The notes under the pieces: generated by a model
Told to the model about the DNA's origin: nothing
The model's database searches: none
What the model saw: only the letters and a program-made list of their open reading frames with translations
Assembly: GCA_009692065.1 (NCBI GenBank)
Contig: SHZY01000008.1
Coordinates: forward strand, 10,937-74,936
DNA: 64,000 nucleotides
Direction: 5' to 3'
Origin: Gemmataceae bacterium
Lineage (GTDB): Bacteria > Planctomycetota > Planctomycetia > Gemmatales > Gemmataceae
Shown: one piece after another, positions 2,489 to 59,107 of the stretch
Numbering within the stretch: the stretch's first letter is position 1
Layout of the letters: every line of letters begins with the position of its first letter
Made by a program: the position numbers and the translations under genes

Positions 2489-2623
2489 GAGTTTATCCGG
2501 CAAGCCCGTGAATGGGAGGGCGAGGCTCCTGCCGAGCCGCTGGGACGTTAAATCTTCCGCGGCTTCACGGCTCGGCAGGAGCCTCGCCCTCCAGAAAAAC
2601 GGCCATTCCGGATAGATTTTGAG
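2488..2623. repeat. 135-bp MITE-like element, copy 1. Terminal inverted repeats are TATCCGG/CCGGATA, around a long internal hairpin GGGAGGGCGAGGCTCCTGCCGAGCC...GGCTCGGCAGGAGCCTCGCCCTCC.
   Basis: Direct reading. The reverse complement of 8026..8162 aligns along the whole length. Confidence 0.8.
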
Positions 2624-8025: not shown

Positions 8026-8162
8026 GAGAAGCTATCCGGAAAGGCCGTTTTTCGGGAGGGCTCGGCTCCCGCCGAGCCGTGAAGCCGCGGAAAATTCAAC
8101 GTCTCAGCGGCTCGGCAGGAGCCGAGCCCTCCCATCCACGGGCTTCCCGGATAGACTCTGAG
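8026..8162. repeat. 135-bp MITE-like element, copy 2 (inverted relative to copy 1)
   Basis: The reverse complement aligns with 2488..2623 including the TIRs. The stem differences are compensatory: CGAGG/CCTCG in copy 1 against CTCGG/CCGAG in copy 2. Confidence 0.8.
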
Positions 8163-34328: not shown

Positions 34329-34463
34329 CTACTTGTCCTTATCTTTTTTGGATGGGATGGGCTTATCGAGGTCCTTGTTGACCGGCTCATTGCCGCCGCT
34401 GCAGCCAAAGATCGGCAACAAGAGGAGCAAGCAAATCCAGCAGGATAGTCGGCCGAGGGGCAT
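34329..34463 (-). CDS. 44-aa lipoprotein (not in the ORF track)
   Basis: Hand translation gives MPLGRLSCWICLLLLLPIFGCSGGNEPVNKDLDKPIPSKKDKDK. It has a lipobox LPIFGC and a Lys/Asp/Pro-rich tail. The SD is weak. Confidence 0.4.
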   Translation of the reverse strand: MPLGRLSCWICLLLLLPIFGCSGGNEPVNKDLDKPIPSKKDKDK

Positions 34464-34494
34464 GAAAAAATCTCAGGATTGACGATTGAATCGG

Positions 34495-34530
34495 AAAAAA
34501 AAAGGGGCCGATTCGTTGGCGAATCGGCCC
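34495..34530 (-). terminator. Rho-independent terminator
   Basis: On the minus strand: GGGCCGATTCG-CCAA-CGAATCGGCCC followed by a run of 9 T, about 35 nt downstream of the 34564 stop. Confidence 0.65.
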
Positions 34531-34563
34531 TGGTTACCGTACTTCGTTCGCCGACGAAGATGA

Positions 34564-34737
34564 TTACGTCTTCGTCTTGGCTTCGGTCGTCGTCTTGGCT
34601 TCGGTCGCCGGCTTGTCGGTTATCGGCTTCGGGTCCGGTGCCGTCTTGACCGCGGGCTTGCCCGGGCAGCCGGTCAAGCCGATGCTCATACCGCTAACCA
34701 GAGCGAATGTGCAGACGATTGCGAGCAATTTCTTCAC
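34564..34737 (-). CDS. 57-aa lipoprotein with a Lys/Thr/Pro/Glu-rich tail
   Basis: The GTG at 34737 is preceded by AGGTAGGA. The product is (M)KKLLAIVCTFALVSGMSIGLTGCPGKPAVKTAPDPKPITDKPATEAKTTTEAKTKT, with lipobox LTGC. Confidence 0.5.
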   Translation of the reverse strand: MKKLLAIVCTFALVSGMSIGLTGCPGKPAVKTAPDPKPITDKPATEAKTTTEAKTKT

Positions 34738-34859
34738 AGAAATCCTACCTTTCGTGAAAAATAACAAACTGGTCTTCCTACACCAAAAACATTTGGACGA
34801 ACTAACCGCCCGTCGCTCAGCCCGTGATGAACTGGCCACGATGATTCAGGCGGACGTCT

Positions 34860-35294
34860 TCACGATGAATGAACAACGGCATTGCGGAGTTGAGCCACGA
34901 GCGGCAGCCCATTCAGGCTGTTGAGGCTGGTGGTTTTCTTTTCGTCAGTCTTGGTCTTTTCTTCGGTCTTGGTTTTACCTTCTGTCTTGGTTTTACCTTC
35001 TGTCTTGGTCTTTTCTTCGGTCTTGGTCTTTTCTTCGGTCTTGGTCTTTTCTTCGGTCTTGGTCTTTTCTTCGGTCTTGGTCTTTTCTTCGGTCTTGGTC
35101 TTTTCTTCGGTCGGGGTCTTGACTTCGGTCGGAGTCTTGATTCCGGTCGGAGTCTTGATTCCGGTCGGAGTCTTGATTCCGGTCGGCGTCTTGGCCGGCG
35201 TCCCCTGGACATTTTCCTTTGTGCACCCAGTGGTGCCCATCGACAGCACAACGGCCACGCACGCACAGATGAATAGCCCAATCAACTTCTTCAT
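34860..35294 (-). CDS. Lipoprotein with 15 tandem hexapeptide repeats (KTPTGI x3, KTPTE[VE], KTKTEE x6 ...)
   Basis: The ATG at 35294 gives MKKLIGLFICACVAVVLSMGTTGC, with a lipobox. The repeats cover aa 35-124. Confidence 0.6.
   Translation of the reverse strand: MKKLIGLFICACVAVVLSMGTTGCTKENVQGTPAKTPTGIKTPTGIKTPTGIKTPTEVKTPTEEKTKTEEKTKTEEKTKTEEKTKTEEKTKTEEKTKTEGKTKTEGKTKTEEKTKTDEKKTTSLNSLNGLPLVAQLRNAVVHSS
34923..35192. repeat. 18-bp tandem repeat array (coding)
   Basis: Five consecutive identical GGTCTTGGTCTTTTCTTC units at 35019..35108 and three identical GGTCGGAGTCTTGATTCC units at 35127..35180, plus diverged flanking units. Confidence 0.9.
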
Positions 35295-35495
35295 GGATGA
35301 ACCTCTCCTGTAGTGGAACAAACGAGGCAGACCAACTCACGTCGGTAAACGCTTCCGACCGGTCCACCCCGCAAATTACTGTTTAGTATGATGCACAAAT
35401 TCTAAGGATATTCCTGGAAAGTTTGCTTTCAAGAACTAAATGTGCAAATCATGCAATTTTTCTCGAATTGCAGCTGCAAGCGATCATGTCCGCTC

Positions 35496-52425: not shown

Positions 52426-52905
52426 GTGACCAAGAAACTCCACATCATCTGCTCCATCAACGGCCAATCCGCCGAGTTCCTGTGCGAGCCGCGCAATAGC
52501 TTGCTCGAAGCCCTGCGCGACGAGCTAAAGTTGACCGGCGCCAAGGAAGGCTGCAACAACGGCAACTGCGGCGCGTGCAACGTCCTTTTGGATGGCCGGC
52601 TCGTCAACAGTTGCCTGGTGATGGCCGCCGAGGTCGAGGGCAAGAGCGTCACCACCATCGAAGGCATCTCCAGCAAGAACGGCTTGCACCCGATTCAGCA
52701 GTGCTTCCTCGAAGGCGCCGCCCTCCAGTGCGGCATCTGCACCCCCGGCTTCATCGTCGCCGCCAAGGCGCTCTTGGACAAGAATCCGCACCCCACCGAG
52801 CACGAAGCCCGCCACTTTCTCGCCGGCAACCTGTGCCGCTGCACCGGGTATGACAAGATCATCCGCGCGGTGCTGGAGGCGGCGGAGTGCGGGGCGAAGA
52901 AATGA
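52426..52905 (+). CDS. [2Fe-2S] small subunit of a xanthine dehydrogenase/CO dehydrogenase-family enzyme (CoxS-like)
   Basis: GTG start. Cluster I motif GCNNGNCGACNV and cluster II motifs CGICTPGF and NLCRCTGY. Confidence 0.9.
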   Translation: MTKKLHIICSINGQSAEFLCEPRNSLLEALRDELKLTGAKEGCNNGNCGACNVLLDGRLVNSCLVMAAEVEGKSVTTIEGISSKNGLHPIQQCFLEGAALQCGICTPGFIVAAKALLDKNPHPTEHEARHFLAGNLCRCTGYDKIIRAVLEAAECGAKK

Positions 52906-52948
52906 TCTAGATCGCAAGGTGCGAACCCGCCGTAAACGGCGGGCTATA

Positions 52949-54874
52949 TCAAATCGAAAAATCCACGCCCACCTCCCGCACGCTCCCCTTCTGCGCAAGA
53001 TAGCGGACGATCCGGTCGGCCGCGGCTTCCACGGAATCCAGGGTCGTGTCGATCATGATCTCGGGATTCTCCGATGGCTCATATTCCGAATCGATGCCGG
53101 TGAAGTGCTTGATTTCGCCGGCGCGGGCCTTTTTGTACAAGCCCTTGGGATCGCGTGCCTCGGCCACGGCCAGCGGTGTGTTGACGAACACTTCGACGAA
53201 TTCTCCCTGCTCCACAAGTCCGCGCGCCATGCGGCGTTCGGTGCGGAACGGCGAGATGAACGAGACCAGCGTGATCAAGCCGGCTTCGACCATCAACTTC
53301 GCGACCTCGGCGACGCGGCGGATGTTCTCCACGCGGTCGGCATCGGTGAAGCCCAGATCGCGGTTGAGGCCGTGCCGCACGTTGTCGCCATCGAGCAGGA
53401 AGGTGTGATGGCCCAGCGAATAGAGGCGTTTCTCCACCAGGTTGGCGATGGTTGACTTGCCCGACCCGGACAATCCGGTGAACCACAGGATGCACGCCTT
53501 CTGGTTCTTGATCGCGGCATGGGCGCCCTTGTTGACTTCGATCGCCTGCCAATGAATGTTTTCGGCGCGGCGGAGCGCGAAATGAATCAGGCCCGCGCCG
53601 ACGGTGCCATTGGTCAAGCGATCGATCAAGATGAAACCGCCGGTGTCGCGGTTCTCAACGTAGGGATCAAAGGCAATTGGCTGGTCGAGGCTCAGGTTGC
53701 AGACGCCGATCTCGTTGAGCTCCAGCGTTTTCGCCGCCAGCTTTTCCAGGGTGTTGACGTTGATCTTGTGCTTGACGTCGGTGACGGTCGCCAGGGCGAG
53801 CTTCGTGCCGACCTTGACCCAGTATTGTCTGCCGGGCAACATCGCCTCCTCGGCCATCCAGATGATCGTCACCTTGAACTGGTCGGCCACGCTCGGCAGC
53901 GCATCGACGCGGGCCAGCACATTGCCGCGGCTGATGTCGATCTCGTCTTCCAGCACGATGGTGACGGACTGTTCCGCGACTGCCTCTTGCAGATCGCCAT
54001 CGATGGTCACAATGCGTGCAACCTTGCTCTCCTTGCCGGAGGGAAGCACCCGTAGGCGATCGCCTGGATGGACGGTCCCGCTCGCGATGACGCCGGAGAA
54101 GCCGCGGAAGCTTTGGTTCGGCCGATTGACCCACTGAACCGGCAGGCGAAACGGCGCGGCTTGACTGTGATCGTCGATCTGCACCGTTTCCAGATGACTC
54201 ATCAGCGTCGGGCCGGTGTACCACGGCGTTTTCGCGGACGGCTCGGTGATGTTCTCGCCGTTCAATGCCGAGATCGGAATGGCAACGATGGAGGTCAAGC
54301 CAATCTGCTCGGCGAATTCGCGGTAGTCTTGCAGGATGGTTTCGAAGATGTCACGGGAAAAGCCGACCATGTCCATCTTGTTGATGGCCAAGACGATATG
54401 CCGAATGCCAATCAGCGAGACGAGGTAACTGTGCCGGCGCGTCTGCGTCAACACCCCCTTGTTGGCGTCAATCAGGATGATGGCCAAGGATGCAGTCGAG
54501 GCGCCGGTCACCATGTTGCGCGTGTATTGCTCATGGCCCGGCGTGTCGGCGACGATGAATTTTCGCTTGTCAGTCGAAAAAAAGCGGTAGGCGACATCGA
54601 TGGTGATCCCCTGCTCGCGCTCGGCGGCAAGGCCATCCACCAGTAAGGCAAGATCGAGTTTGCCGCCCTGCGTGCCCATCTTCTTCGAGTCGGCTTCAAT
54701 CGCCGCCAACTGGTCTTCGAAGATCATCTTCGAATCGTAGAGCAGCCGGCCGATCAGCGTGCTTTTGCCGTCATCGACGCTGCCGCAGGTGATGAAGCGC
54801 AAGAGGGACTTGTGCTCGTGCGACTTGAGGTACTGGTCGATGTCGGTGGCGATGAGGTCGGAGATGTGTGCCAT
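52949..54874 (-). CDS. cysNC: Bifunctional sulfate adenylyltransferase subunit 1 / adenylylsulfate kinase
   Basis: GTPase motifs GSVDDGKST and DTPGHEQY. The C-terminal APS kinase carries the P-loop GLSGSGKST. Confidence 0.92.
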
Positions 54875-54877
54875 AAT

Positions 54878-55579
54878 TCAAATTCCTGGCCGTGATCGGG
54901 AGGGCGAGGCTCCTGCCGAGCCTTTGGGTGCGGCAAACTCGCATATTCTGAAATGATAGGTTGAGGGAAAATGGCCGTTCGTCTCGATCTCGACGGTGTC
55001 TACAGTGAAATCTAATTCCTTCTGGAGAATCTCAAGAAAACGATCGACGGGCTTCAGAAAATTGCGGTCCGTCTTGCAGGCGTGTGTTAGCCGATATTTT
55101 CTCAATGGTTTCCACCAGTTGACATATCTTTCGATATCACTGTCATCCAGCGCGGCTAGGTCTCGCGAACAGATGATCCAGACGAAGAGGTTAGGCTTTT
55201 TTTTCCAAACGTCCTTCCAGATCCTAGGCACGATGTCCCAACCACTTCCTTTTTCCATCAGCCGTCGAATGTTCTTGTCGGAAGTCCTTTCCAATTTTTC
55301 TAGTTCTTTCTTGAGCCTGGATTCTAACGTCTCATAGTTGAACTTGAATTCGAGGTTGATCTGTTTCTCCCTGGTTGAGTGCGATGGAGTCCAGATCGCC
55401 AGGTCGTGCTTGTTGATTCTGTCCAGTGCGTACAAGTGCTTCTGTCTCCAAAGGCATTTCGCCAACAAATGCACGATTGGGTCTTCCTGCATGATGCTTG
55501 CGAGGTAGGAGCTAATTTCTTCCAACCCTATTTTGAAACCCGAAGGCGTGAAAATCTCCGTCAAATCAGCCGCTGTCAT
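54878..55579 (-). CDS. Orphan hypothetical protein (233 aa) encoded by visibly AT-rich DNA
   Basis: The ATG at 55579 gives MTAADLTEIFTPSGF. The sequence is Lys/Trp-rich (WKDVWKKKPNLFVWIICSRD) with no motif recognised. The stop TGA is 3 nt before the cysNC ATG, and the last ~20 codons read through a repeat fragment. Confidence 0.5.
   Translation of the reverse strand: MTAADLTEIFTPSGFKIGLEEISSYLASIMQEDPIVHLLAKCLWRQKHLYALDRINKHDLAIWTPSHSTREKQINLEFKFNYETLESRLKKELEKLERTSDKNIRRLMEKGSGWDIVPRIWKDVWKKKPNLFVWIICSRDLAALDDSDIERYVNWWKPLRKYRLTHACKTDRNFLKPVDRFLEILQKELDFTVDTVEIETNGHFPSTYHFRICEFAAPKGSAGASPSRSRPGI
54898..54922. repeat. Truncated copy (one arm) of the 135-bp MITE-like element
   Basis: GGGAGGGCGAGGCTCCTGCCGAGCC is identical to 2514..2538. 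The complementary arm is absent. Confidence 0.7.
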
Positions 55580-55599
55580 TTGTGTTTTCCCTATTGGCC

Positions 55600-56301
55600 T
55601 CACCGCCGCCCATTCTTCCGCTCCGCCCCCGCCTTCTTCCCGACAACATCCGACTGCAGCCATTCCGTAAATTCCTCAAGCAAGCTGAGCTCGTCGGCAC
55701 TGCCGAGTTTCCTCACGTGGCGGACAAAGCCATCCATTGGCAACGACGGAAAGGCCATGCTCTTGGCTCGCTCCTTGTATTTGCCGTTGGCGCCGAGGAT
55801 GAGCACCTTGAGCGTTTCGCCATCGAAGCGCCAGACTTCGGGGACCTTGAGCGCCGCATAGATCCCCAGCCTGTTCAGCCAGCTGCTGCTGATATCAATC
55901 TCGATGGCGAGATCGGGCGGCGGATCGGTGAGCGCGTCCCATTTTTTCTTGCTGCGCATGCTTTTTTCATGCTTGATCCAGTAACACCGGTCTGGCTCAA
56001 GGCCTACCTTTTCCAGCGCCAATTTCAGGGTTGTCGAACCACCGCTGCACAGGCGAATCTTCATTGCGAACGAAAAAAAAGAGAGCAACTTGGCCATCCA
56101 CTCGCCGTAGTGCTCGTGCTCGAAAGGAATGGTCATGAATTCAAGATCTCCGTCTTGGTACGTAACTCGATGGTGCGTCTCTCCAATGTCGTCGAGGATG
56201 CGCTCGAATGCCGTCCATCTGATATTTCGGAGAACCATGTGTTCGGGGGGTCGTTCGATTACAGCAACCATGAGATTTCCTCGCAAAAAGGCCATGGGCA
56301 T
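55600..56301 (-). CDS. Uma2-family (DUF820) PD-(D/E)xK-like endonuclease
   Basis: Typical Uma2 blocks: EFMTIPFEHEHYGEWM, EPDRCYWI and PPDLAIEIDISSS. The start could be 56301, 56295 or 56271. The ORF-track start at 56490 would overlap cysD. Confidence 0.75.
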   Translation of the reverse strand: MPMAFLRGNLMVAVIERPPEHMVLRNIRWTAFERILDDIGETHHRVTYQDGDLEFMTIPFEHEHYGEWMAKLLSFFSFAMKIRLCSGGSTTLKLALEKVGLEPDRCYWIKHEKSMRSKKKWDALTDPPPDLAIEIDISSSWLNRLGIYAALKVPEVWRFDGETLKVLILGANGKYKERAKSMAFPSLPMDGFVRHVRKLGSADELSLLEEFTEWLQSDVVGKKAGAERKNGRR

Positions 56302-56330
56302 TCTATCCGAATCCGCGCCCCAAACGGCGA

Positions 56331-57242
56331 TCAGAAATACCCTTCCTGCTTCTTCTTCTCCATTGACGCCGCCGCATCGTGGTCGATGACGCGCCCTTGC
56401 CGTTCCGACGTCTTCGTCAGCAACATCTCCTGAATGATGGCAGGCAACGTGTCGGCTTCGCTTTCGATGGCGCCAGTCAAGGGATAGCAACCGAGCGTGC
56501 GGAAGCGGACTTTCTTCAGCATCGGCTTCTCGCCGGGGCGGAGCGGCATGCGCTCGTCATCGACCATGATCAGCGTGCCGTCGCGGTCCACCACGGGCCG
56601 TTCCTTGGCATAGTAGAGCGGCACAATCGGGATCTTTTGCAGGTGGATGTATTGCCAGGTGTCGAGTTCGGTCCAGTTCGACAGCGGGAAGACGCGCAAG
56701 CATTCGCCCTTGCGATGGCGCGTGTTATAGAGCCGCCACAATTCGGGCCGCTGCTGTTTCGGGTCCCAGCGGTGCTGTTCCGAGCGAAACGAAAAGATGC
56801 GCTCCTTGGCCCGGCTTTTCTCCTCGTCGCGGCGCGCGCCGCCGAAGGCTGCATCGAAGCGATATTTGTCAAGCGCTTGCCGCAGCGCCTGGGTCTTCAT
56901 GACATCGGTATGCACCGCCGACCCATGCGTGAACGGATTGATGCCGGCCGCAAGCCCCTCGGGGTTGGTGTAGGTCAAGAGTTCCAAGCCGAGCGAATTC
57001 ACCATCTTCGCGCGAAAGGCGTACATATCCTGGAATTTCCAGGTAGTATCGATGTGCATCAGCGGAAAGGGGGGCTTCGACGGGTAGAAAGCCTTCATGG
57101 CCAGATGCAGCATCACGGCGCTGTCCTTGCCGATCGAATACAGCATCACGGGATTTTCACATTCCGCGACCACCTCGCGCAGGATGTGGATGCTTTCGGC
57201 CTCCAGCCGATCGAGATGCGTCAACGTCGTCATGAGGTTCAT
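56331..57242 (-). CDS. cysD: Sulfate adenylyltransferase subunit 2
   Basis: PAPS-reductase-fold N-terminus [15 protein letters not shown]. CysD-typical blocks [15 protein letters not shown] and [13 protein letters not shown]. Confidence 0.95.
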
Positions 57243-57282
57243 TGTATCGGCTAGGATTCATGGGCAAGGCCGAACGATAGCC

Positions 57283-57310
57283 GCCCCTCTCCCCCGAAGG
57301 GGAGAGGGGC
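57283..57310. repeat. Hairpin GCCCCTCTCCCC-CGAA-GGGGAGAGGGGC
   Basis: Perfect 12-bp stem in the divergent cysD/redoxin intergenic region. Confidence 0.7.
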
Positions 57311-57388
57311 GAAGAATCCGCGAAACCGCGGCTCAGTTTTCCTGGTATAATTGCCGTAGATCTCCGCAACGTAATCGAGGACCGCTCC

Positions 57389-59107
57389 ATGCAACGTCTC
57401 GCGCTCATTGCCGCCCTGTTGATTCCGACAACGCTCCACGCCAGTCCGACGGTCGTCAAATTCAAGCTGAATGCAATCGACGGCAAGGCATGGTCGCTTG
57501 ACGACTGCAAGGACAAGAAAGCCGTCGTCGTCGTGTTCATCGGCACGCAATGTCCGGTGAACAACGCGTACATGCCTCGGCTCGTCGAGTTGGTGAAAGC
57601 GTACGGCGACAAAGGGGTGCAGTTCGTCGCCATCAATGCCAACGAGCACGACACATTGGACGCGATCAAGGCCCACGCGAAGAAATTCGGCCTGACGTTT
57701 CCGGTCCTGCGTGACGAAATGCAATTGGTCGCCAATCGCTTCGGAGCTGCCCGGCATCCGATCGCATTTCTGCTCGACGACAAGCATGCCATCCGTTACG
57801 AGGGGCGCATCGACGATCAGTACGGCATCGGCTACGACCGCGCCAAACCGACGCGGCGCGATCTGGCCGACGCACTCGACGAGGTGCTGGCAGGCAAGGA
57901 AGTGTCGAACAAAAAGACGGCGGCCGAGGGATGCTTCATCACCAAGCTGCCGACGGCAAAACCCACCAAGGCCGATGTCACTTACACGAAGGACATTTCG
58001 CGCATCCTGCAAAAAAACTGCCAGGAATGCCATCGCCCCGGCCAGATCGGGCCGATGCCGCTCTTGAGCTATGACGATGCGTCGGCCTGGTCGCAGATGA
58101 TCCACGAGGTCGTGTCGGATGGCCGCATGCCGCCCTGGCATGCCGATCCGAAGCATAGCAAGTTCAAGAACAATCGCCGGCTCTTGGATGACGAGCGGAA
58201 GAAACTGACAACGTGGATCGATGCCGGCTGTCCCGAGGGAAACGTCGCCGATTTGCCGCCGGCGAAGAAATTCTCCGATGGCTGGACCATCGGCAAGCCT
58301 GATGCCATCTTCACGTTCAAGGACGCAATCCATGTGCCCGCCAAGGCGACGCGCAACAGCATCCCCTACAAGTACGTTCTCGTGAAAACCAATTTCGACG
58401 AGGACAAGTGGATCCAGGCCGTCGAAGCTCGACCCGGAAATTACGCCGTAGTCCACCACATCATCGTGTACATGGCCAAGGGGACTCAACGTGAAAAAAG
58501 CCCCGGCGACGGCATCGGTAGCGGGCTCCTCGTTGCGTACGCGCCGGGCGACCTCGGCTCCGTCTTCGCCACCGGCGCCGCCAAGAAACTGCCCAAAGGC
58601 GCCACGCTCGCCTTCCAGATGCACTACACGCCGGTCGGCACCGAGCAGACCGACAAGTCTTCCCTCGGCCTCGTTTTTGCGAAGGAATCGCCCGCCGACG
58701 AAATCAAGACCCGCGCCATCGCCCAGCAATCCTTCTTGATCCCGGCCAACGCCGGCAATCACAAGGTCACGAGCAAGACGACTTTCGACAAGGACGTCAT
58801 CCTGTACAGCATGTTCCCGCACATGCACCTGCGCGGCAAGGACTTCCAGTTTGACGTCGTCTATCCCAATAACAAACGTGAAACGCTGCTCTCGGTGCCA
58901 CGCTACGATTTCGGTTGGCAGTCGAACTACCTCCTGGAGAAGCCATTGCGTCTGCCCGCGGGTACACGGATCGAGTGCACGGCTCACTTCGATAACTCGA
59001 CGAAGAACCCGAACAATCCGAATCCCAACACGTTCGTCTTCTGGGGTGAACAAACCTGGAACGAGATGATGATCGGGTTCGTTGATTATGCGCATGTAAA
59101 GAAGTAG
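57389..59107 (+). CDS. Secreted three-module fusion: thioredoxin-fold (AhpC/TSA-redoxin) + c-type heme motif + PHM/DBH-like copper monooxygenase-like domain
   Basis: Signal peptide. Redoxin block VVVFIGTQCPVNNAY and heme motif CQECHRPG. The His/Met ligand pattern is HHIIVY ... MHYTPVG ... FPHMHLRG ... NEMMIGF. Confidence 0.7.
   Translation: MQRLALIAALLIPTTLHASPTVVKFKLNAIDGKAWSLDDCKDKKAVVVVFIGTQCPVNNAYMPRLVELVKAYGDKGVQFVAINANEHDTLDAIKAHAKKFGLTFPVLRDEMQLVANRFGAARHPIAFLLDDKHAIRYEGRIDDQYGIGYDRAKPTRRDLADALDEVLAGKEVSNKKTAAEGCFITKLPTAKPTKADVTYTKDISRILQKNCQECHRPGQIGPMPLLSYDDASAWSQMIHEVVSDGRMPPWHADPKHSKFKNNRRLLDDERKKLTTWIDAGCPEGNVADLPPAKKFSDGWTIGKPDAIFTFKDAIHVPAKATRNSIPYKYVLVKTNFDEDKWIQAVEARPGNYAVVHHIIVYMAKGTQREKSPGDGIGSGLLVAYAPGDLGSVFATGAAKKLPKGATLAFQMHYTPVGTEQTDKSSLGLVFAKESPADEIKTRAIAQQSFLIPANAGNHKVTSKTTFDKDVILYSMFPHMHLRGKDFQFDVVYPNNKRETLLSVPRYDFGWQSNYLLEKPLRLPAGTRIECTAHFDNSTKNPNNPNPNTFVFWGEQTWNEMMIGFVDYAHVKK

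What the first reader, a model, noticed from the sequence alone, without database searches (positions are those of the whole stretch)
54875..56330. cysD and cysNC are split by a co-oriented two-gene cassette (Uma2-type nuclease + AT-rich orphan)
Seen: cysD (56331..57242) and cysNC (52949..54874) encode the two subunits of one enzyme, ATP sulfurylase. Here they are separated by about 1.45 kb carrying two extra genes on the same strand.
- The first is a Uma2/DUF820 PD-(D/E)xK-like protein (PPDLAIEIDISSS).
- The second is a 233-aa orphan whose DNA (about 54940..55580) is conspicuously AT-richer by eye than anything flanking it.
- Gaps are tight: cysD stop to Uma2 start is about 30 nt, Uma2 stop to orphan start is 20 nt, and the orphan stop is 3 nt before the cysNC ATG.

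Established: cysD and cysN are normally adjacent and often translationally coupled.

Inference: this is a horizontally acquired module inserted into the short cysD-cysN spacer. It now has to be transcribed through for cysNC expression. That makes it either a selfish or addiction-type module riding an important operon, or a candidate nuclease-plus-partner (defence-like) pair. I cannot name the orphan family.
Basis: partly seen in the sequence, partly recalled or inferred. Interest (0 to 1): 0.68.

Follow-up and report, generated by a model that had tools for sequence, protein, structure and literature searches.

The report
Variable passenger genes splitting cysD–cysNC
In one group of Gemmataceae bacteria, the two normally overlapping genes for ATP sulfurylase are separated by a fixed nuclease-like Uma2 gene and a second slot whose content differs between relatives; here that slot holds a conserved protein of unknown function with no structural match in the libraries searched, not an orphan.

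Summary
cysD, Uma2, a 233-aa gene (X) and cysNC lie on the minus strand with gaps of 29 (or 59), 20 and 3 nt. X sits in the lowest-GC 700-nt stretch of the window (47.9% against 60.0%).

- **X is not an orphan.** It has 113 homologues (185 clusters at 50% identity), with dN/dS 0.17 in the one unsaturated pair. Its AlphaFold model is confident (pLDDT 88) but matches nothing in PDB, BFVD or Pfam.
- **Low GC is a trait of the X family.** X is 8–17 points below its host locus in every context examined.
- **Uma2 and X are not a conserved pair.** X occurs without Uma2 in at least five other fetched contexts, once wedged between MoxR and DUF58.
- **The second slot varies.** Relatives carry cysD–Uma2–X–cysNC, cysD–Uma2–RAYT–X–cysNC or cysD–Uma2–HEAT-repeat gene–cysNC. 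More distant relatives and 51 of 79 proteobacterial loci keep the ancestral TGATG overlap.
- **Boundaries are sharp.** Nucleotide identity drops at the cysD stop and recovers at the cysNC ATG. Synonymous divergence in the cassette exceeds that of the flanks.

Best reading: an old, lineage-specific accessory-gene slot inside the operon, whose genes are probably read through and translationally coupled to cysNC. Their function is unknown.

The parts
56331..57242 (-). cysD, sulfate adenylyltransferase subunit 2; first gene of the unit
   Evidence: Pfam PAPS_reduct E 3.6e-56. It is 93–94% identical to cysD in L001, L100 and L103.
57243..57388 (.). 146-nt divergent intergenic region between cysD and the redoxin-like gene. 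It is the only non-coding space upstream of the four-gene unit, so it is the presumed promoter region (inferred).
   Evidence: ORF map. No sigma-70-like site was found anywhere in 52800–57500 by the consensus scan.
56272..56330 (-). cysD–Uma2 spacer. It is 29 nt to the first ATG at 56301 and 59 nt to the family-conserved start at 56271. It shares an ATAGAAT-containing stretch with L001 and L100.
   Evidence: Sequence; junction comparison.
55600..56301 (-). Uma2/DUF820-family gene with a restriction-endonuclease-like fold (slot 1, constant across the clade)
   Evidence: Pfam Uma2 56.5 bits. PADLOC PDC-S17 E 1.5e-36. AF2 model pLDDT 81 matches 1wdj, 3ot2, 9y1l and 6okh at probability 1.0. E92, P93, D120 and E124 are invariant, and E44 and D94 are conserved in at least 90% of sequences.
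55580..55599 (-). 20-nt Uma2–X spacer carrying a purine-rich AGGGAAAA before the X ATG
   Evidence: Sequence. Other family members have GGAG about 7–9 nt before the conserved MT(A/G/S) start.
54878..55579 (-). X: a 233-aa member of an uncharacterised, Pfam-less family of about 210 aa (slot 2, variable across the clade). The conserved domain is encoded by 55579–54935.
   Evidence: 113 homologues and 185 clusters at 50% identity. 19 invariant columns in the alignment. AF2 pLDDT 88.4, pTM 0.86. No PDB or BFVD fold match. dN/dS 0.17 for L100–L001.
54898..54922 (-). REP-like 25-mer GGCTCGGCAGGAGCCTCGCCCTCCC with a 5-bp stem and 5-nt loop. It lies inside the non-conserved 3' tail of the X ORF, just upstream of cysNC.
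   Evidence: 5 copies in the window against 0 expected, two of them as inverted doublets. The same element occupies the same position after X in L001 and L008.
54883..54887 (-). AGGAA, a Shine-Dalgarno-like motif 8 nt before the cysNC ATG. The X stop codon (54880–54878) lies between it and the ATG.
   Evidence: Junction comparison: AGGAA or GAGAA lies 3–10 nt upstream of the cysNC ATG in the five Gemmataceae-clade loci that carry the insert.
52949..54874 (-). cysNC, fused sulfate adenylyltransferase subunit 1 and APS kinase; last gene of the unit. It is followed by a convergent Fer2 gene.
   Evidence: Pfam GTP_EFTU E 5.8e-42 and APS_kinase E 6e-68. 89–91% identical in L001, L100 and L008.

Best explanation
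The cysD–cysNC junction of one Gemmataceae sub-clade has become a long-lived accessory-gene slot inside the operon.

History, supported by comparison:
- The ancestral state is cysD and cysNC overlapping by one base (TGATG).
- In this clade a Uma2-family gene, with a restriction-endonuclease-like fold, was inserted directly after cysD and has been kept.
- Between Uma2 and cysNC is a second slot whose content turns over by recombination or horizontal exchange. It holds X in the window and L100, a REP-associated tyrosine transposase (RAYT) plus X in L001 and L008, and a HEAT-repeat gene in L103.

Expression, inferred from geometry:
- The inserted genes have no detectable promoter or terminator of their own.
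- They are probably transcribed from the cysD promoter.
- Whichever ORF fills slot 2 usually runs up to the cysNC start. The stop overlaps the start as TAATG in three relatives and lies 3 nt away here.
- In X this is achieved by a non-conserved tail read through a REP element. It would re-create the translational coupling that cysD normally provides.

Function, largely unknown:
- X is a real protein under purifying selection. It belongs to a small family that is Gemmataceae wherever a source names the organism, and its predicted fold is unmatched.
- X is not tied to sulfate assimilation or to Uma2.
- My weak best guess is that both passengers are conflict-type or selfish accessory genes rather than cys factors.
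For: **Ancestral overlap**
- L105 and 51 of 79 proteobacterial loci have the TGATG overlap. L104 has a 71-nt spacer with no gene.

**Clade-wide insertion with a variable second slot**
- Seen in L001, L008, L100 and L103.
- Contig-length matching suggests that contigs carrying cysD at 94–95% and Uma2 at 83–92% identity hold no X hit. This is indirect.

**Common origin of slot 1**
- The cysD–Uma2 junction sequence is shared.

**Turnover in the cassette**
- Nucleotide identity is 85–93% in the flanks. It falls to about 45–60% at both edges of the cassette, exactly at the cysD stop and the cysNC ATG, and lies between about 36% and 84% inside it.
- dS is 0.53–0.87 in six flanking genes, 0.97–2.9 in Uma2, and saturated in X.
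- The exception is L100–L001, where X has dS 0.65 and dN/dS 0.17.
- Pairwise identities are incongruent between Uma2, X and cysNC.

**X is real**
- Supported by homologue counts, conserved columns and a confident model.

**X is independent of Uma2 and cys**
- Shown by its other genomic contexts.

**Low GC is a family trait**.

**Coupling geometry and Shine-Dalgarno-like motif**.

**No promoter or minus-strand terminator** in the consensus scan, no Rfam element, no tRNA, and no target-site duplication or terminal inverted repeats.

**REP and RAYT**
- Documented.

**Uma2 identity**.

**Precedent**
- A DUF820 gene and a toxin-antitoxin module lie inside the hoxEFUYH operon of Synechocystis (PMC4963859).
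Against: - There are no expression data. Co-transcription and coupling are inferred from geometry only, and planctomycete promoters may not fit the sigma-70 scan.
- In L100 the X ORF ends 84 nt before cysNC, so coupling is not universal.
- Only five insert-bearing loci could be read. The taxonomy of the two empty-site loci (L104, L105) is not established.
- Higher dS in the cassette could be partly inflated by its weaker codon bias, although the L100–L001 pair argues against a large effect.
- Absence of X from the closest relatives rests on matching contig lengths, not on sequence.
- No function is shown for Uma2 or X.
Confidence: 0.6

Rival explanations
1. Uma2 and X form a two-gene toxin–immunity or addiction module. 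Uma2 is a nuclease toxin and the slot-2 gene is its cognate inhibitor. The module stabilises, or free-rides on, the cys operon.
For: - The nuclease-like gene comes first and a small, fast-evolving, AT-rich gene second, with tight spacing.
- Both evolve much faster than their flanks.
- Slot 2 changes together with large Uma2 divergence.
- DUF820 proteins are described as toxin-antitoxin-associated and operon-embedded in Synechocystis (PMC4963859).
- Uma2 matches PADLOC candidate PDC-S17.
Against: - X occurs with no Uma2 within 5–6 kb in L002–L007 and L101–L102.
- Uma2 occurs with a HEAT-repeat gene instead of X.
- A RAYT gene and REPs separate Uma2 from X in L001 and L008.
- Uma2 and X identities are incongruent: L100–L001 gives X 80% but Uma2 67%, while window–L008 gives Uma2 69% but X 49%.
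- There is no match to any toxin or antitoxin family.
Confidence: 0.15
2. A single recent horizontal insertion of a ready-made Uma2+X cassette into the cysD–cysN spacer of this genome.
For: - Low GC and GC3 in both genes.
- Sharp identity breakpoints at the cysD stop and the cysNC ATG.
Against: - The same architecture is present in relatives whose flanking genes differ by dS of about 0.6.
- The cysD–Uma2 junction is shared.
- X is AT-rich in every host, so low GC does not date the event.
- There are no target-site duplications, terminal repeats, integrase or tRNA.
- Uma2 and X have different histories.
Confidence: 0.07
3. Uma2 and/or X have been co-opted as accessory or regulatory factors of sulfate activation. 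For example, they might tune CysD:CysNC stoichiometry or act on sulfur-related nucleic-acid modifications, and that is why they are retained inside the operon.
For: - Long retention of Uma2 at this exact site across the clade.
- Purifying selection: Uma2 dN/dS 0.08–0.27 and X 0.17.
- Reading frames are kept open up to the cysNC start.
Against: - X sits in unrelated contexts: MoxR–DUF58, after ilvD, after an NHL protein, and in a toxin-antitoxin-rich region.
- Slot 2 is replaceable by a HEAT-repeat gene.
- Most bacteria, and more distant relatives, need no such gene.
- There is no similarity to any known cys protein.
Confidence: 0.1
4. X is a non-functional or spurious ORF in AT-rich spacer DNA.
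For: No known domain and low GC.
Against: - 113 homologues with 19 invariant columns.
- 185 clusters at 50% identity, all about 200–240 aa.
- Confident AF2 model, pLDDT 88.
- dN/dS 0.17.
- Conserved start with a GGAG-like ribosome-binding site.
Confidence: 0.02

Closest known systems
DUF820/Uma2 gene sll1222 and the toxin-antitoxin module sll1225–ssl2420 embedded in the hoxEFUYH hydrogenase operon of Synechocystis sp. PCC 6803 (Kopfmann et al. 2016, PMC4963859)
   Same: A Uma2/DUF820 gene, together with another small accessory gene or genes, is wedged co-directionally between genes for subunits of one enzyme complex and is transcribed as part of the longer unit. The authors raise the same question of stabilisation or hitch-hiking.
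   Different: - Different phylum, operon and partner genes.
- Here the partner is not a recognisable toxin-antitoxin pair. It is a Pfam-less family with no fold match in PDB or BFVD, or a HEAT-repeat gene, or RAYT plus X.
- The slot content varies between close relatives.
- The last inserted ORF abuts the downstream start codon.
Uma2 family (PF05685, COG4636; structures TT1808 1wdj and Ava_3926 3ot2), a PD-(D/E)XK superfamily member of unknown function, expanded in Cyanobacteria and other phyla
   Same: The slot-1 gene is a bona fide member by HMM score, predicted fold and conserved acidic motif.
   Different: It adds nothing functional. The family has no demonstrated activity or role, and this copy lies inside a biosynthetic operon rather than in a mobile or defence context.
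REP/REPIN elements and REP-associated tyrosine transposases (RAYT; TnpA_REP, PDB 4er8)
   Same: A 25-nt hairpin-containing repeat occurs singly and as inverted doublets. In two relatives a RAYT-like gene flanked by these repeats sits in the slot.
   Different: RAYTs are known, to my knowledge, to spread non-coding REPINs and not protein-coding passengers. In the window only one REP copy is present and there is no RAYT. A role for REP or RAYT in exchanging slot-2 genes is conjecture.
Integration or variable hotspots flanked by conserved core genes, such as defence islands or hotspots and integron cassette arrays
   Same: Conserved flanks with sharp boundaries, variable AT-rich content, and promoterless co-oriented genes.
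   Different: - The flanks are two overlapping subunit genes of one enzyme.
- There is no integrase, attC-like site or known defence gene.
- Only one or two genes are involved.

Membership tests
Uma2 / DUF820 (PF05685) | Match to the family HMM above the curated threshold | tested here: met
   56.5 bits against a cut-off of 27, E 3.1e-15, profile positions 4–149 of 172.
Uma2 / DUF820 (PF05685) | Restriction-endonuclease-like fold resembling TT1808 (1wdj) and Ava_3926 (3ot2) | tested here: met
   AF2 model pLDDT 80.9. Foldseek hits 9y1l, 6okh, 1wdj, 3ot2 and 3ijm at probability 0.99–1.00, with target TM 0.54–0.65.
Uma2 / DUF820 (PF05685) | Conserved acidic motif (…E…, EPD, PDLxxE…S) | tested here: met
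   E92, P93, D120 and E124 are invariant, and E44 and D94 are conserved in at least 90% of the 27 close homologues. The window has PPDLAIEIDISSS.
Uma2 / DUF820 (PF05685) | Nuclease activity | not testable with these tools
   No biochemical data. As far as the papers found show, activity is not established for the family either.
PADLOC candidate defence system PDC-S17 | Match to the candidate's HMM | tested here: met
   E 1.5e-36, 123.7 bits, profile positions 13–196 of 199.
PADLOC candidate defence system PDC-S17 | Defence-island context and/or demonstrated anti-phage activity | tested here: not met
   The neighbours are cysD, cysNC, Fer2, FAD-binding, redoxin and purD genes. X has no PADLOC hit. 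No paper mentions PDC-S17. Activity cannot be tested here.
Type II toxin–antitoxin or toxin–immunity pair | The two genes co-occur as a unit across genomes | tested here: not met
   X occurs without Uma2 in L002–L007 and L101–L102. Uma2 occurs with a HEAT-repeat gene in L103. RAYT lies between them in L001 and L008.
Type II toxin–antitoxin or toxin–immunity pair | Either gene matches a known toxin, antitoxin or immunity family | tested here: not met
   Pfam, NCBIfam, PADLOC and PHROGs give nothing for X. Uma2 matches only Uma2 and PDC-S17/PDC-S03.
Type II toxin–antitoxin or toxin–immunity pair | Toxicity and specific neutralisation | not testable with these tools
   Requires expression experiments.
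PD-(D/E)XK nuclease superfamily (for X) | D…(D/E)xK signature on consecutive strands after a helix | tested here: inconclusive
   D59, E77 and K79 are invariant. In the model D59 immediately precedes strand E60–64, E77 and K79 lie within strand E72–82, and the order is H33–45, E49–51, E60–64, E72–82, helices, E131–139. This is compatible but not diagnostic.
PD-(D/E)XK nuclease superfamily (for X) | Fold or profile similarity to known members | tested here: not met
   Foldseek against PDB gives a best E of 0.058 with TM below 0.25. Against BFVD the best E is 0.03, with one PD-(D/E)XK hit at E 0.064 and TM 0.19. The PDB sequence profile finds nothing, and hhalign against Uma2 gives probability 0.4%. 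The same Foldseek search readily found the fold for Uma2.
Classical mobile element (IS, transposon, integron cassette or genomic island) for the window's insert | Transposase or integrase, terminal inverted repeats, target-site duplication, or a tRNA/att site | tested here: not met
   No meaningful direct or inverted repeats flank 54878–56330. There is no tRNA in the window, and no RAYT homologue in the window by tblastn.
REP / RAYT system | Multi-copy short palindromic repeat, partly as inverted doublets | tested here: met
   5 copies against 0 expected, with doublets at 2514–2593 and 8054–8133.
REP / RAYT system | RAYT gene flanked by the repeats | tested here: met
   Met in relatives only. 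The 159/160-aa genes in L001 and L008 match NF047646 at E 2e-19 (69.7 bits, below the 80-bit cut-off) and 4er8 at E 1e-7. They are flanked by the 25-mer. No such gene is present in the window.
Sulfate-assimilation accessory protein (for X) | Similarity to a known cys/sulfur protein, or exclusive linkage to cys genes | tested here: not met
   No family match. At least five other fetched contexts are unrelated to sulfur, and a sixth, known only from its gene table, is also non-cys.

The most novel reading that the evidence does not exclude
Slot 2 is a cassette site serviced by REP elements and RAYT. Protein-coding passengers (divergent X alleles, the HEAT-repeat gene) would be exchanged between conserved REP brackets, either by the RAYT HUH transposase or by REP-guided recombination. 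Selection would keep each passenger's reading frame open to the cysNC start to preserve translational coupling. X would then be the founding member of a family with a previously unseen fold, adapted to life as a promoterless passenger wedged between operon partners (cysD|cysNC here, MoxR|DUF58 in L006).

The evidence does not exclude this:
- In L001 and L008 identical 25-mers sit 27 nt before X and 29 nt after its conserved domain.
- The X coding sequences between those 25-mers are saturated at synonymous sites.
Probability: 0.12. Interest if true: 0.75.

Novelty: new variant of a known kind. Interest (0 to 1): 0.45.

Why it matters
It shows that even the one-base overlap between the genes for two subunits of an essential-pathway enzyme can be opened and then kept open as a stable landing place for accessory genes, apparently without losing the downstream gene's translational coupling. 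It adds a second, phylogenetically distant case to the cyanobacterial hox-operon precedent of Uma2 genes living inside operons. That strengthens the idea that this large, functionless-so-far nuclease-like family behaves as an operon passenger. It also defines a compact, well-modelled protein family (X) with no domain, no structural relative in the libraries searched and a persistent AT bias, which makes it a clean target for structural and functional work. The practical importance is modest unless the passengers turn out to have a defence, addiction or regulatory role.

Tried and rejected
**Searches for the identity of X, all negative**
- Pfam, NCBIfam, PADLOC and PHROGs gave nothing significant.
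- Seven distant family members also have no Pfam domain.
- A PDB sequence-profile search found nothing.
- Foldseek against PDB and BFVD gave no match.
- hhalign of X against Uma2 gave probability 0.4%.
- X was not found in IMG/VR viral contigs, PLSDB plasmids or GenBank phages.

**Database scans that gave less than hoped**
- The genome-contig scan with CysNC returned almost only Proteobacteria, because the protein is so conserved. It served as a control rather than as a Gemmataceae survey.
- The metagenome scan with the X profile returned only 11 loci, mostly short.

**Region scans, all negative**
- The promoter/terminator scan, Rfam, tRNA and repeat scans of the region found nothing relevant.

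**Readings I dropped or could not settle**
- A neighbour-joining tree suggested that X in L008 belongs to a different subfamily. BLAST shows its nearest relatives are still the L001-type X at about 51%. I therefore do not claim polyphyly, only very deep divergence.
- No recurring partner gene of X was found among the fetched loci.
- The organism names of L104 and L105 could not be obtained.
- The literature on Uma2 function is essentially empty, and PDC-S17 is not mentioned in any paper searched.
Full report
**1. The observation**

All four genes lie on the minus strand.
- cysD is at 57242–56331 (PAPS_reduct, E 3.6e-56).
- A Uma2-family ORF is at 56301–55600 (Pfam Uma2, 56.5 bits against a cut-off of 27; it contains PPDLAIEIDISSS).
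- A 233-aa ORF, which I call X, is at 55579–54878.
- cysNC is at 54874–52949 (GTP_EFTU plus APS_kinase).

The gaps are 29, 20 and 3 nt. Homologues of Uma2 begin at the MVAVIE start (56271), so the real first gap may be 59 nt. Public annotations over-extend both ORFs.

X is 48.3% GC (GC3 60%) and Uma2 is 55.4% (GC3 70%). The cys genes are 59–60% GC with GC3 of 80–82%. The 700-nt window starting at 54901 is the lowest-GC stretch in the 64 kb: 0.479 against a mean of 0.600 and sd of 0.030.

**2. The norm**

I scanned genomes with CysNC and obtained 79 proteobacterial loci that hold both genes.
- In 51 of them the cysD stop overlaps the cysNC start (TGATG; sequence shown).
- 24 have spacers of 5–205 nt.
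- Only four have spacers of 554–757 nt.
- One long spacer holds a Glyoxalase_4 gene and another a 201-aa unknown ORF.

Splitting of the pair is therefore rare, but it is not unique to this window.

**3. X is not an orphan**

- X has 113 homologues at E of 0.01 or better, 33–63% identical, all unnamed or labelled "hypothetical". Where an organism is named, it is Gemmataceae.
- An exhaustive profile search of 1.84 billion cluster representatives found 185 clusters. The full-length ones are about 200–240 aa with a single domain.
- A 42-sequence alignment has 19 invariant columns: Q31, E32, D59, E77, K79, D123, R139, D140, S206, Y208, H209 and others.
- The family start MT(A/G/S) is preceded by a GGAG-like motif in most loci.
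- The only pair of alleles not saturated at synonymous sites gives dN/dS of 0.17.

AlphaFold2 gives a confident model (pLDDT 88.4, pTM 0.86). Foldseek finds nothing against it in PDB (best E 0.058, TM below 0.25) or in BFVD. Pfam, NCBIfam, PADLOC, PHROGs and a PDB sequence profile are also empty.

D59 immediately precedes one strand and E77 and K79 lie within the next, in a helix–strand–strand–strand–helix–strand order. This resembles a PD-(D/E)XK core. It remains only a lead, because the same Foldseek procedure recovered the endonuclease fold for Uma2 at probability 1.0 and not for X. hhalign of X against Uma2 gives 0.4%. X was not found on viral contigs, plasmids or phages.

**4. Comparison of the junction in relatives**

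| Locus | cysD identity to window | Arrangement |
|---|---|---|
| L100 | 93% | cysD–Uma2–X–cysNC, syntenic with the window across purD, redoxin, Fer2 and the FAD-binding gene |
| L001 | 94% | cysD–Uma2–160-aa gene–X–cysNC |
| L008 | no cysD on the contig (cysNC 89%) | Uma2–159-aa gene–X–cysNC, with dcd upstream instead of cysD |
| L103 | 94% | cysD–Uma2–HEAT-repeat gene (194 aa)–cysNC |
| L104 | 89% | 71-nt spacer with a hairpin and no gene |
| L105 | 87% | Ancestral overlap |

The 159/160-aa gene is a relative of REP-associated tyrosine transposases. It matches NF047646 at E 2e-19 (69.7 bits, below the 80-bit cut-off) and PDB 4er8 at E 1e-7.

The sequence just after the cysD stop is recognisably similar in the window, L001 and L100, which suggests a single ancestral Uma2 insertion.

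Matching contig lengths across the three protein searches suggests that several further cysD+Uma2 contigs hold no X. These include the closest ones: Uma2 92% on a 12.4-kb contig and 83% on a 35.5-kb contig. This is indirect evidence, because I had no look-ups left to read those contigs.

**5. Uma2 and X are not a pair**

X occurs without any Uma2 within 5–6 kb in several other fetched contexts (tblastn check):
- after an NHL-repeat gene (L002–L004);
- in a toxin-antitoxin-rich region (L005);
- wedged between MoxR and DUF58 with gaps of 41 and 4 nt (L006 and L007);
- after ilvD (L101 and L102).

A further place, read only as a gene table without DNA, has X after DUF1501 and next to an unannotated 160-aa gene. 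No gene recurs next to X.

**6. Composition does not date the insertion**

X is 8–17 GC points below its host locus in every context. Examples are 51.7% against 68.2% in L101 and 43.6% against 59.8% in L005. The HEAT-repeat gene in L103 is also low in GC. AT-richness is a standing property of these passenger genes.

**7. Turnover in the cassette**

For the window against L100, amino-acid identities are:
- flanking genes: purD 88%, redoxin 77%, cysD 93%, cysNC 90%, Fer2 87%, FAD-binding 86%;
- cassette genes: Uma2 64%, X 57%.

Synonymous divergence is 0.53–0.86 in those six flanking genes, 1.26 in Uma2, and saturated in X.

Between L100 and L001, by contrast, X has dS of 0.65, equal to the flanks, while Uma2 has 0.97. 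Between L001 and L008, cysNC has dS of 0.54, RAYT 2.3, Uma2 1.8, and X is saturated. Pairwise identities are incongruent among Uma2, X and cysNC.

Sliding nucleotide identity is 85–93% up to the cysD stop. It drops there to about 45–60%, lies between about 36% and 84% inside the cassette, and returns to 85–92% at the cysNC ATG. In L100 against L001, X is as similar as the flanks and Uma2 is not.

This is the pattern of a slot whose segments have been exchanged independently, not of one block inherited or acquired once. A neighbour-joining tree placed the L008 allele in another subfamily. BLAST still makes the L001-type alleles its nearest relatives at 51%, so I claim only deep divergence.

**8. 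REP elements**

The 25-mer GGCTCGGCAGGAGCCTCGCCCTCCC occurs five times in the window against 0 expected. Two occurrences are inverted doublets 55 nt apart, and one lies at 54898–54922 inside the 3' tail of X.

In L001 and L008 identical copies flank the RAYT gene and bracket X. They sit 27 nt before the X start and 29 nt after its conserved domain. L100 has none.

The conserved X domain ends near residue 215. The tails of 18–35 residues in the window, L001 and L008 are translations of the REP and the spacer. They end at a stop that overlaps the cysNC ATG (TAATG in L001 and L008) or lies 3 nt before it (window). The HEAT-repeat ORF in L103 ends the same way. An AGGAA-type motif precedes the ATG in all five insert-bearing loci.

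**9. How it probably works**

- The four genes are bounded by a divergent gene upstream and a convergent gene downstream.
- The consensus scan finds no sigma-70-like promoter in 52800–57500 and no minus-strand terminator-like site.
- There is no Rfam element, no tRNA, and no flanking repeats.

The most economical reading is one transcript from the 146-nt region upstream of cysD, with cysNC translation re-coupled to the last passenger ORF. The geometry is shown directly. Co-transcription and coupling are inferred. L100, with an 84-nt gap, shows that coupling is not obligatory.

The functions of Uma2 and X are unknown. The only hints of a conflict role are the following:
- Uma2 is a canonical family member.
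- Uma2 matches PADLOC candidate PDC-S17, which no searched paper mentions.
- A DUF820 gene and a toxin-antitoxin module sit inside the Synechocystis hox operon (PMC4963859).
- The gene context of the family varies and is associated with mobility in some lineages (PMC3424549).

**10. Verdict**

This is an insertion of foreign-looking genes into a normally overlapping gene pair, and cysNC probably depends on read-through.

It is not an orphan, not a two-gene module, and not recent. It is an old, clade-specific passenger slot within the operon, with a fixed Uma2 gene and a variable second position.

This is a new variant of a known kind: Uma2 and toxin-antitoxin genes embedded in operons, and variable hotspots between conserved genes. 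Interest is moderate. It comes mainly from the variable slot between two subunit genes, the maintained stop/start abutment, and a well-modelled protein family with no structural match in the libraries searched.

Noticed in passing
window 2514-2593 and 8054-8133: Two REPIN-like inverted doublets of the 25-mer GGCTCGGCAGGAGCCTCGCCCTCCC, 55 nt start to start. No RAYT gene is present in the 64-kb window.
   Followed up: partly
L001 7395-7877; L008 2174-2653: A gene of 159/160 aa resembling a REP-associated tyrosine transposase (HUH motif MPDHIHFF), flanked by the same 25-mer, is inserted between Uma2 and X in two relatives. Another X homologue, from the same sample as the window and seen only as a gene table, is followed 4 nt later by an unannotated 160-aa gene.
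   Followed up: partly
window 52949-54874 and 56331-57242: CysNC and CysD are 69–77% and 72–84% identical to alpha- and gammaproteobacterial proteins, such as Steroidobacteraceae and Caulobacteraceae. The enzyme is either extremely conserved or has moved between phyla.
   Followed up: no
L006 4952-7957 (also L007): An X homologue is wedged co-directionally between a MoxR AAA+ ATPase gene and its usual DUF58/VWA partner, with gaps of 41 and 4 nt. This is a second case of X splitting a functionally coupled gene pair.
   Followed up: partly
L039 1094-1742; L018 5245-6000; L028 1575-2211; L030 5448-6000: Four proteobacterial genomes also carry extra DNA between cysD and cysNC: a Glyoxalase_4 gene, a 201-aa unknown ORF, a 47%-GC stretch, and a 553-nt spacer.
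   Followed up: partly
L104 6904-6974: The 71-nt cysD–cysN spacer of a more distant relative holds a perfect 22-bp hairpin (GAGCACGCAGCGCAAGCAAGTG…CACTTGCTTGCGCTGCGTGCTC) with no T-run.
   Followed up: no
window 34400-35400: The second-lowest GC patch of the window (about 50%). It holds two small lipoprotein-like ORFs on the minus strand, one with KTEEKT-type tandem repeats (34860–35321).
   Followed up: partly
L103 10603-11226; L009 2111-2731: A second, divergent Uma2 gene lies on the opposite strand just downstream of cysNC in two relatives. It is absent at that position in the window.
   Followed up: no
L103 8262-10239: cysNC is called as two ORFs (310 and 338 aa) in this long-read-derived contig. 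This is probably a frameshift or an assembly error.
   Followed up: no
window 54878-55663 and 55600-56490: Public annotations of this record extend both passenger ORFs upstream (261 aa and 296 aa). This makes them overlap the preceding gene. Family alignments support the shorter starts.
   Followed up: yes
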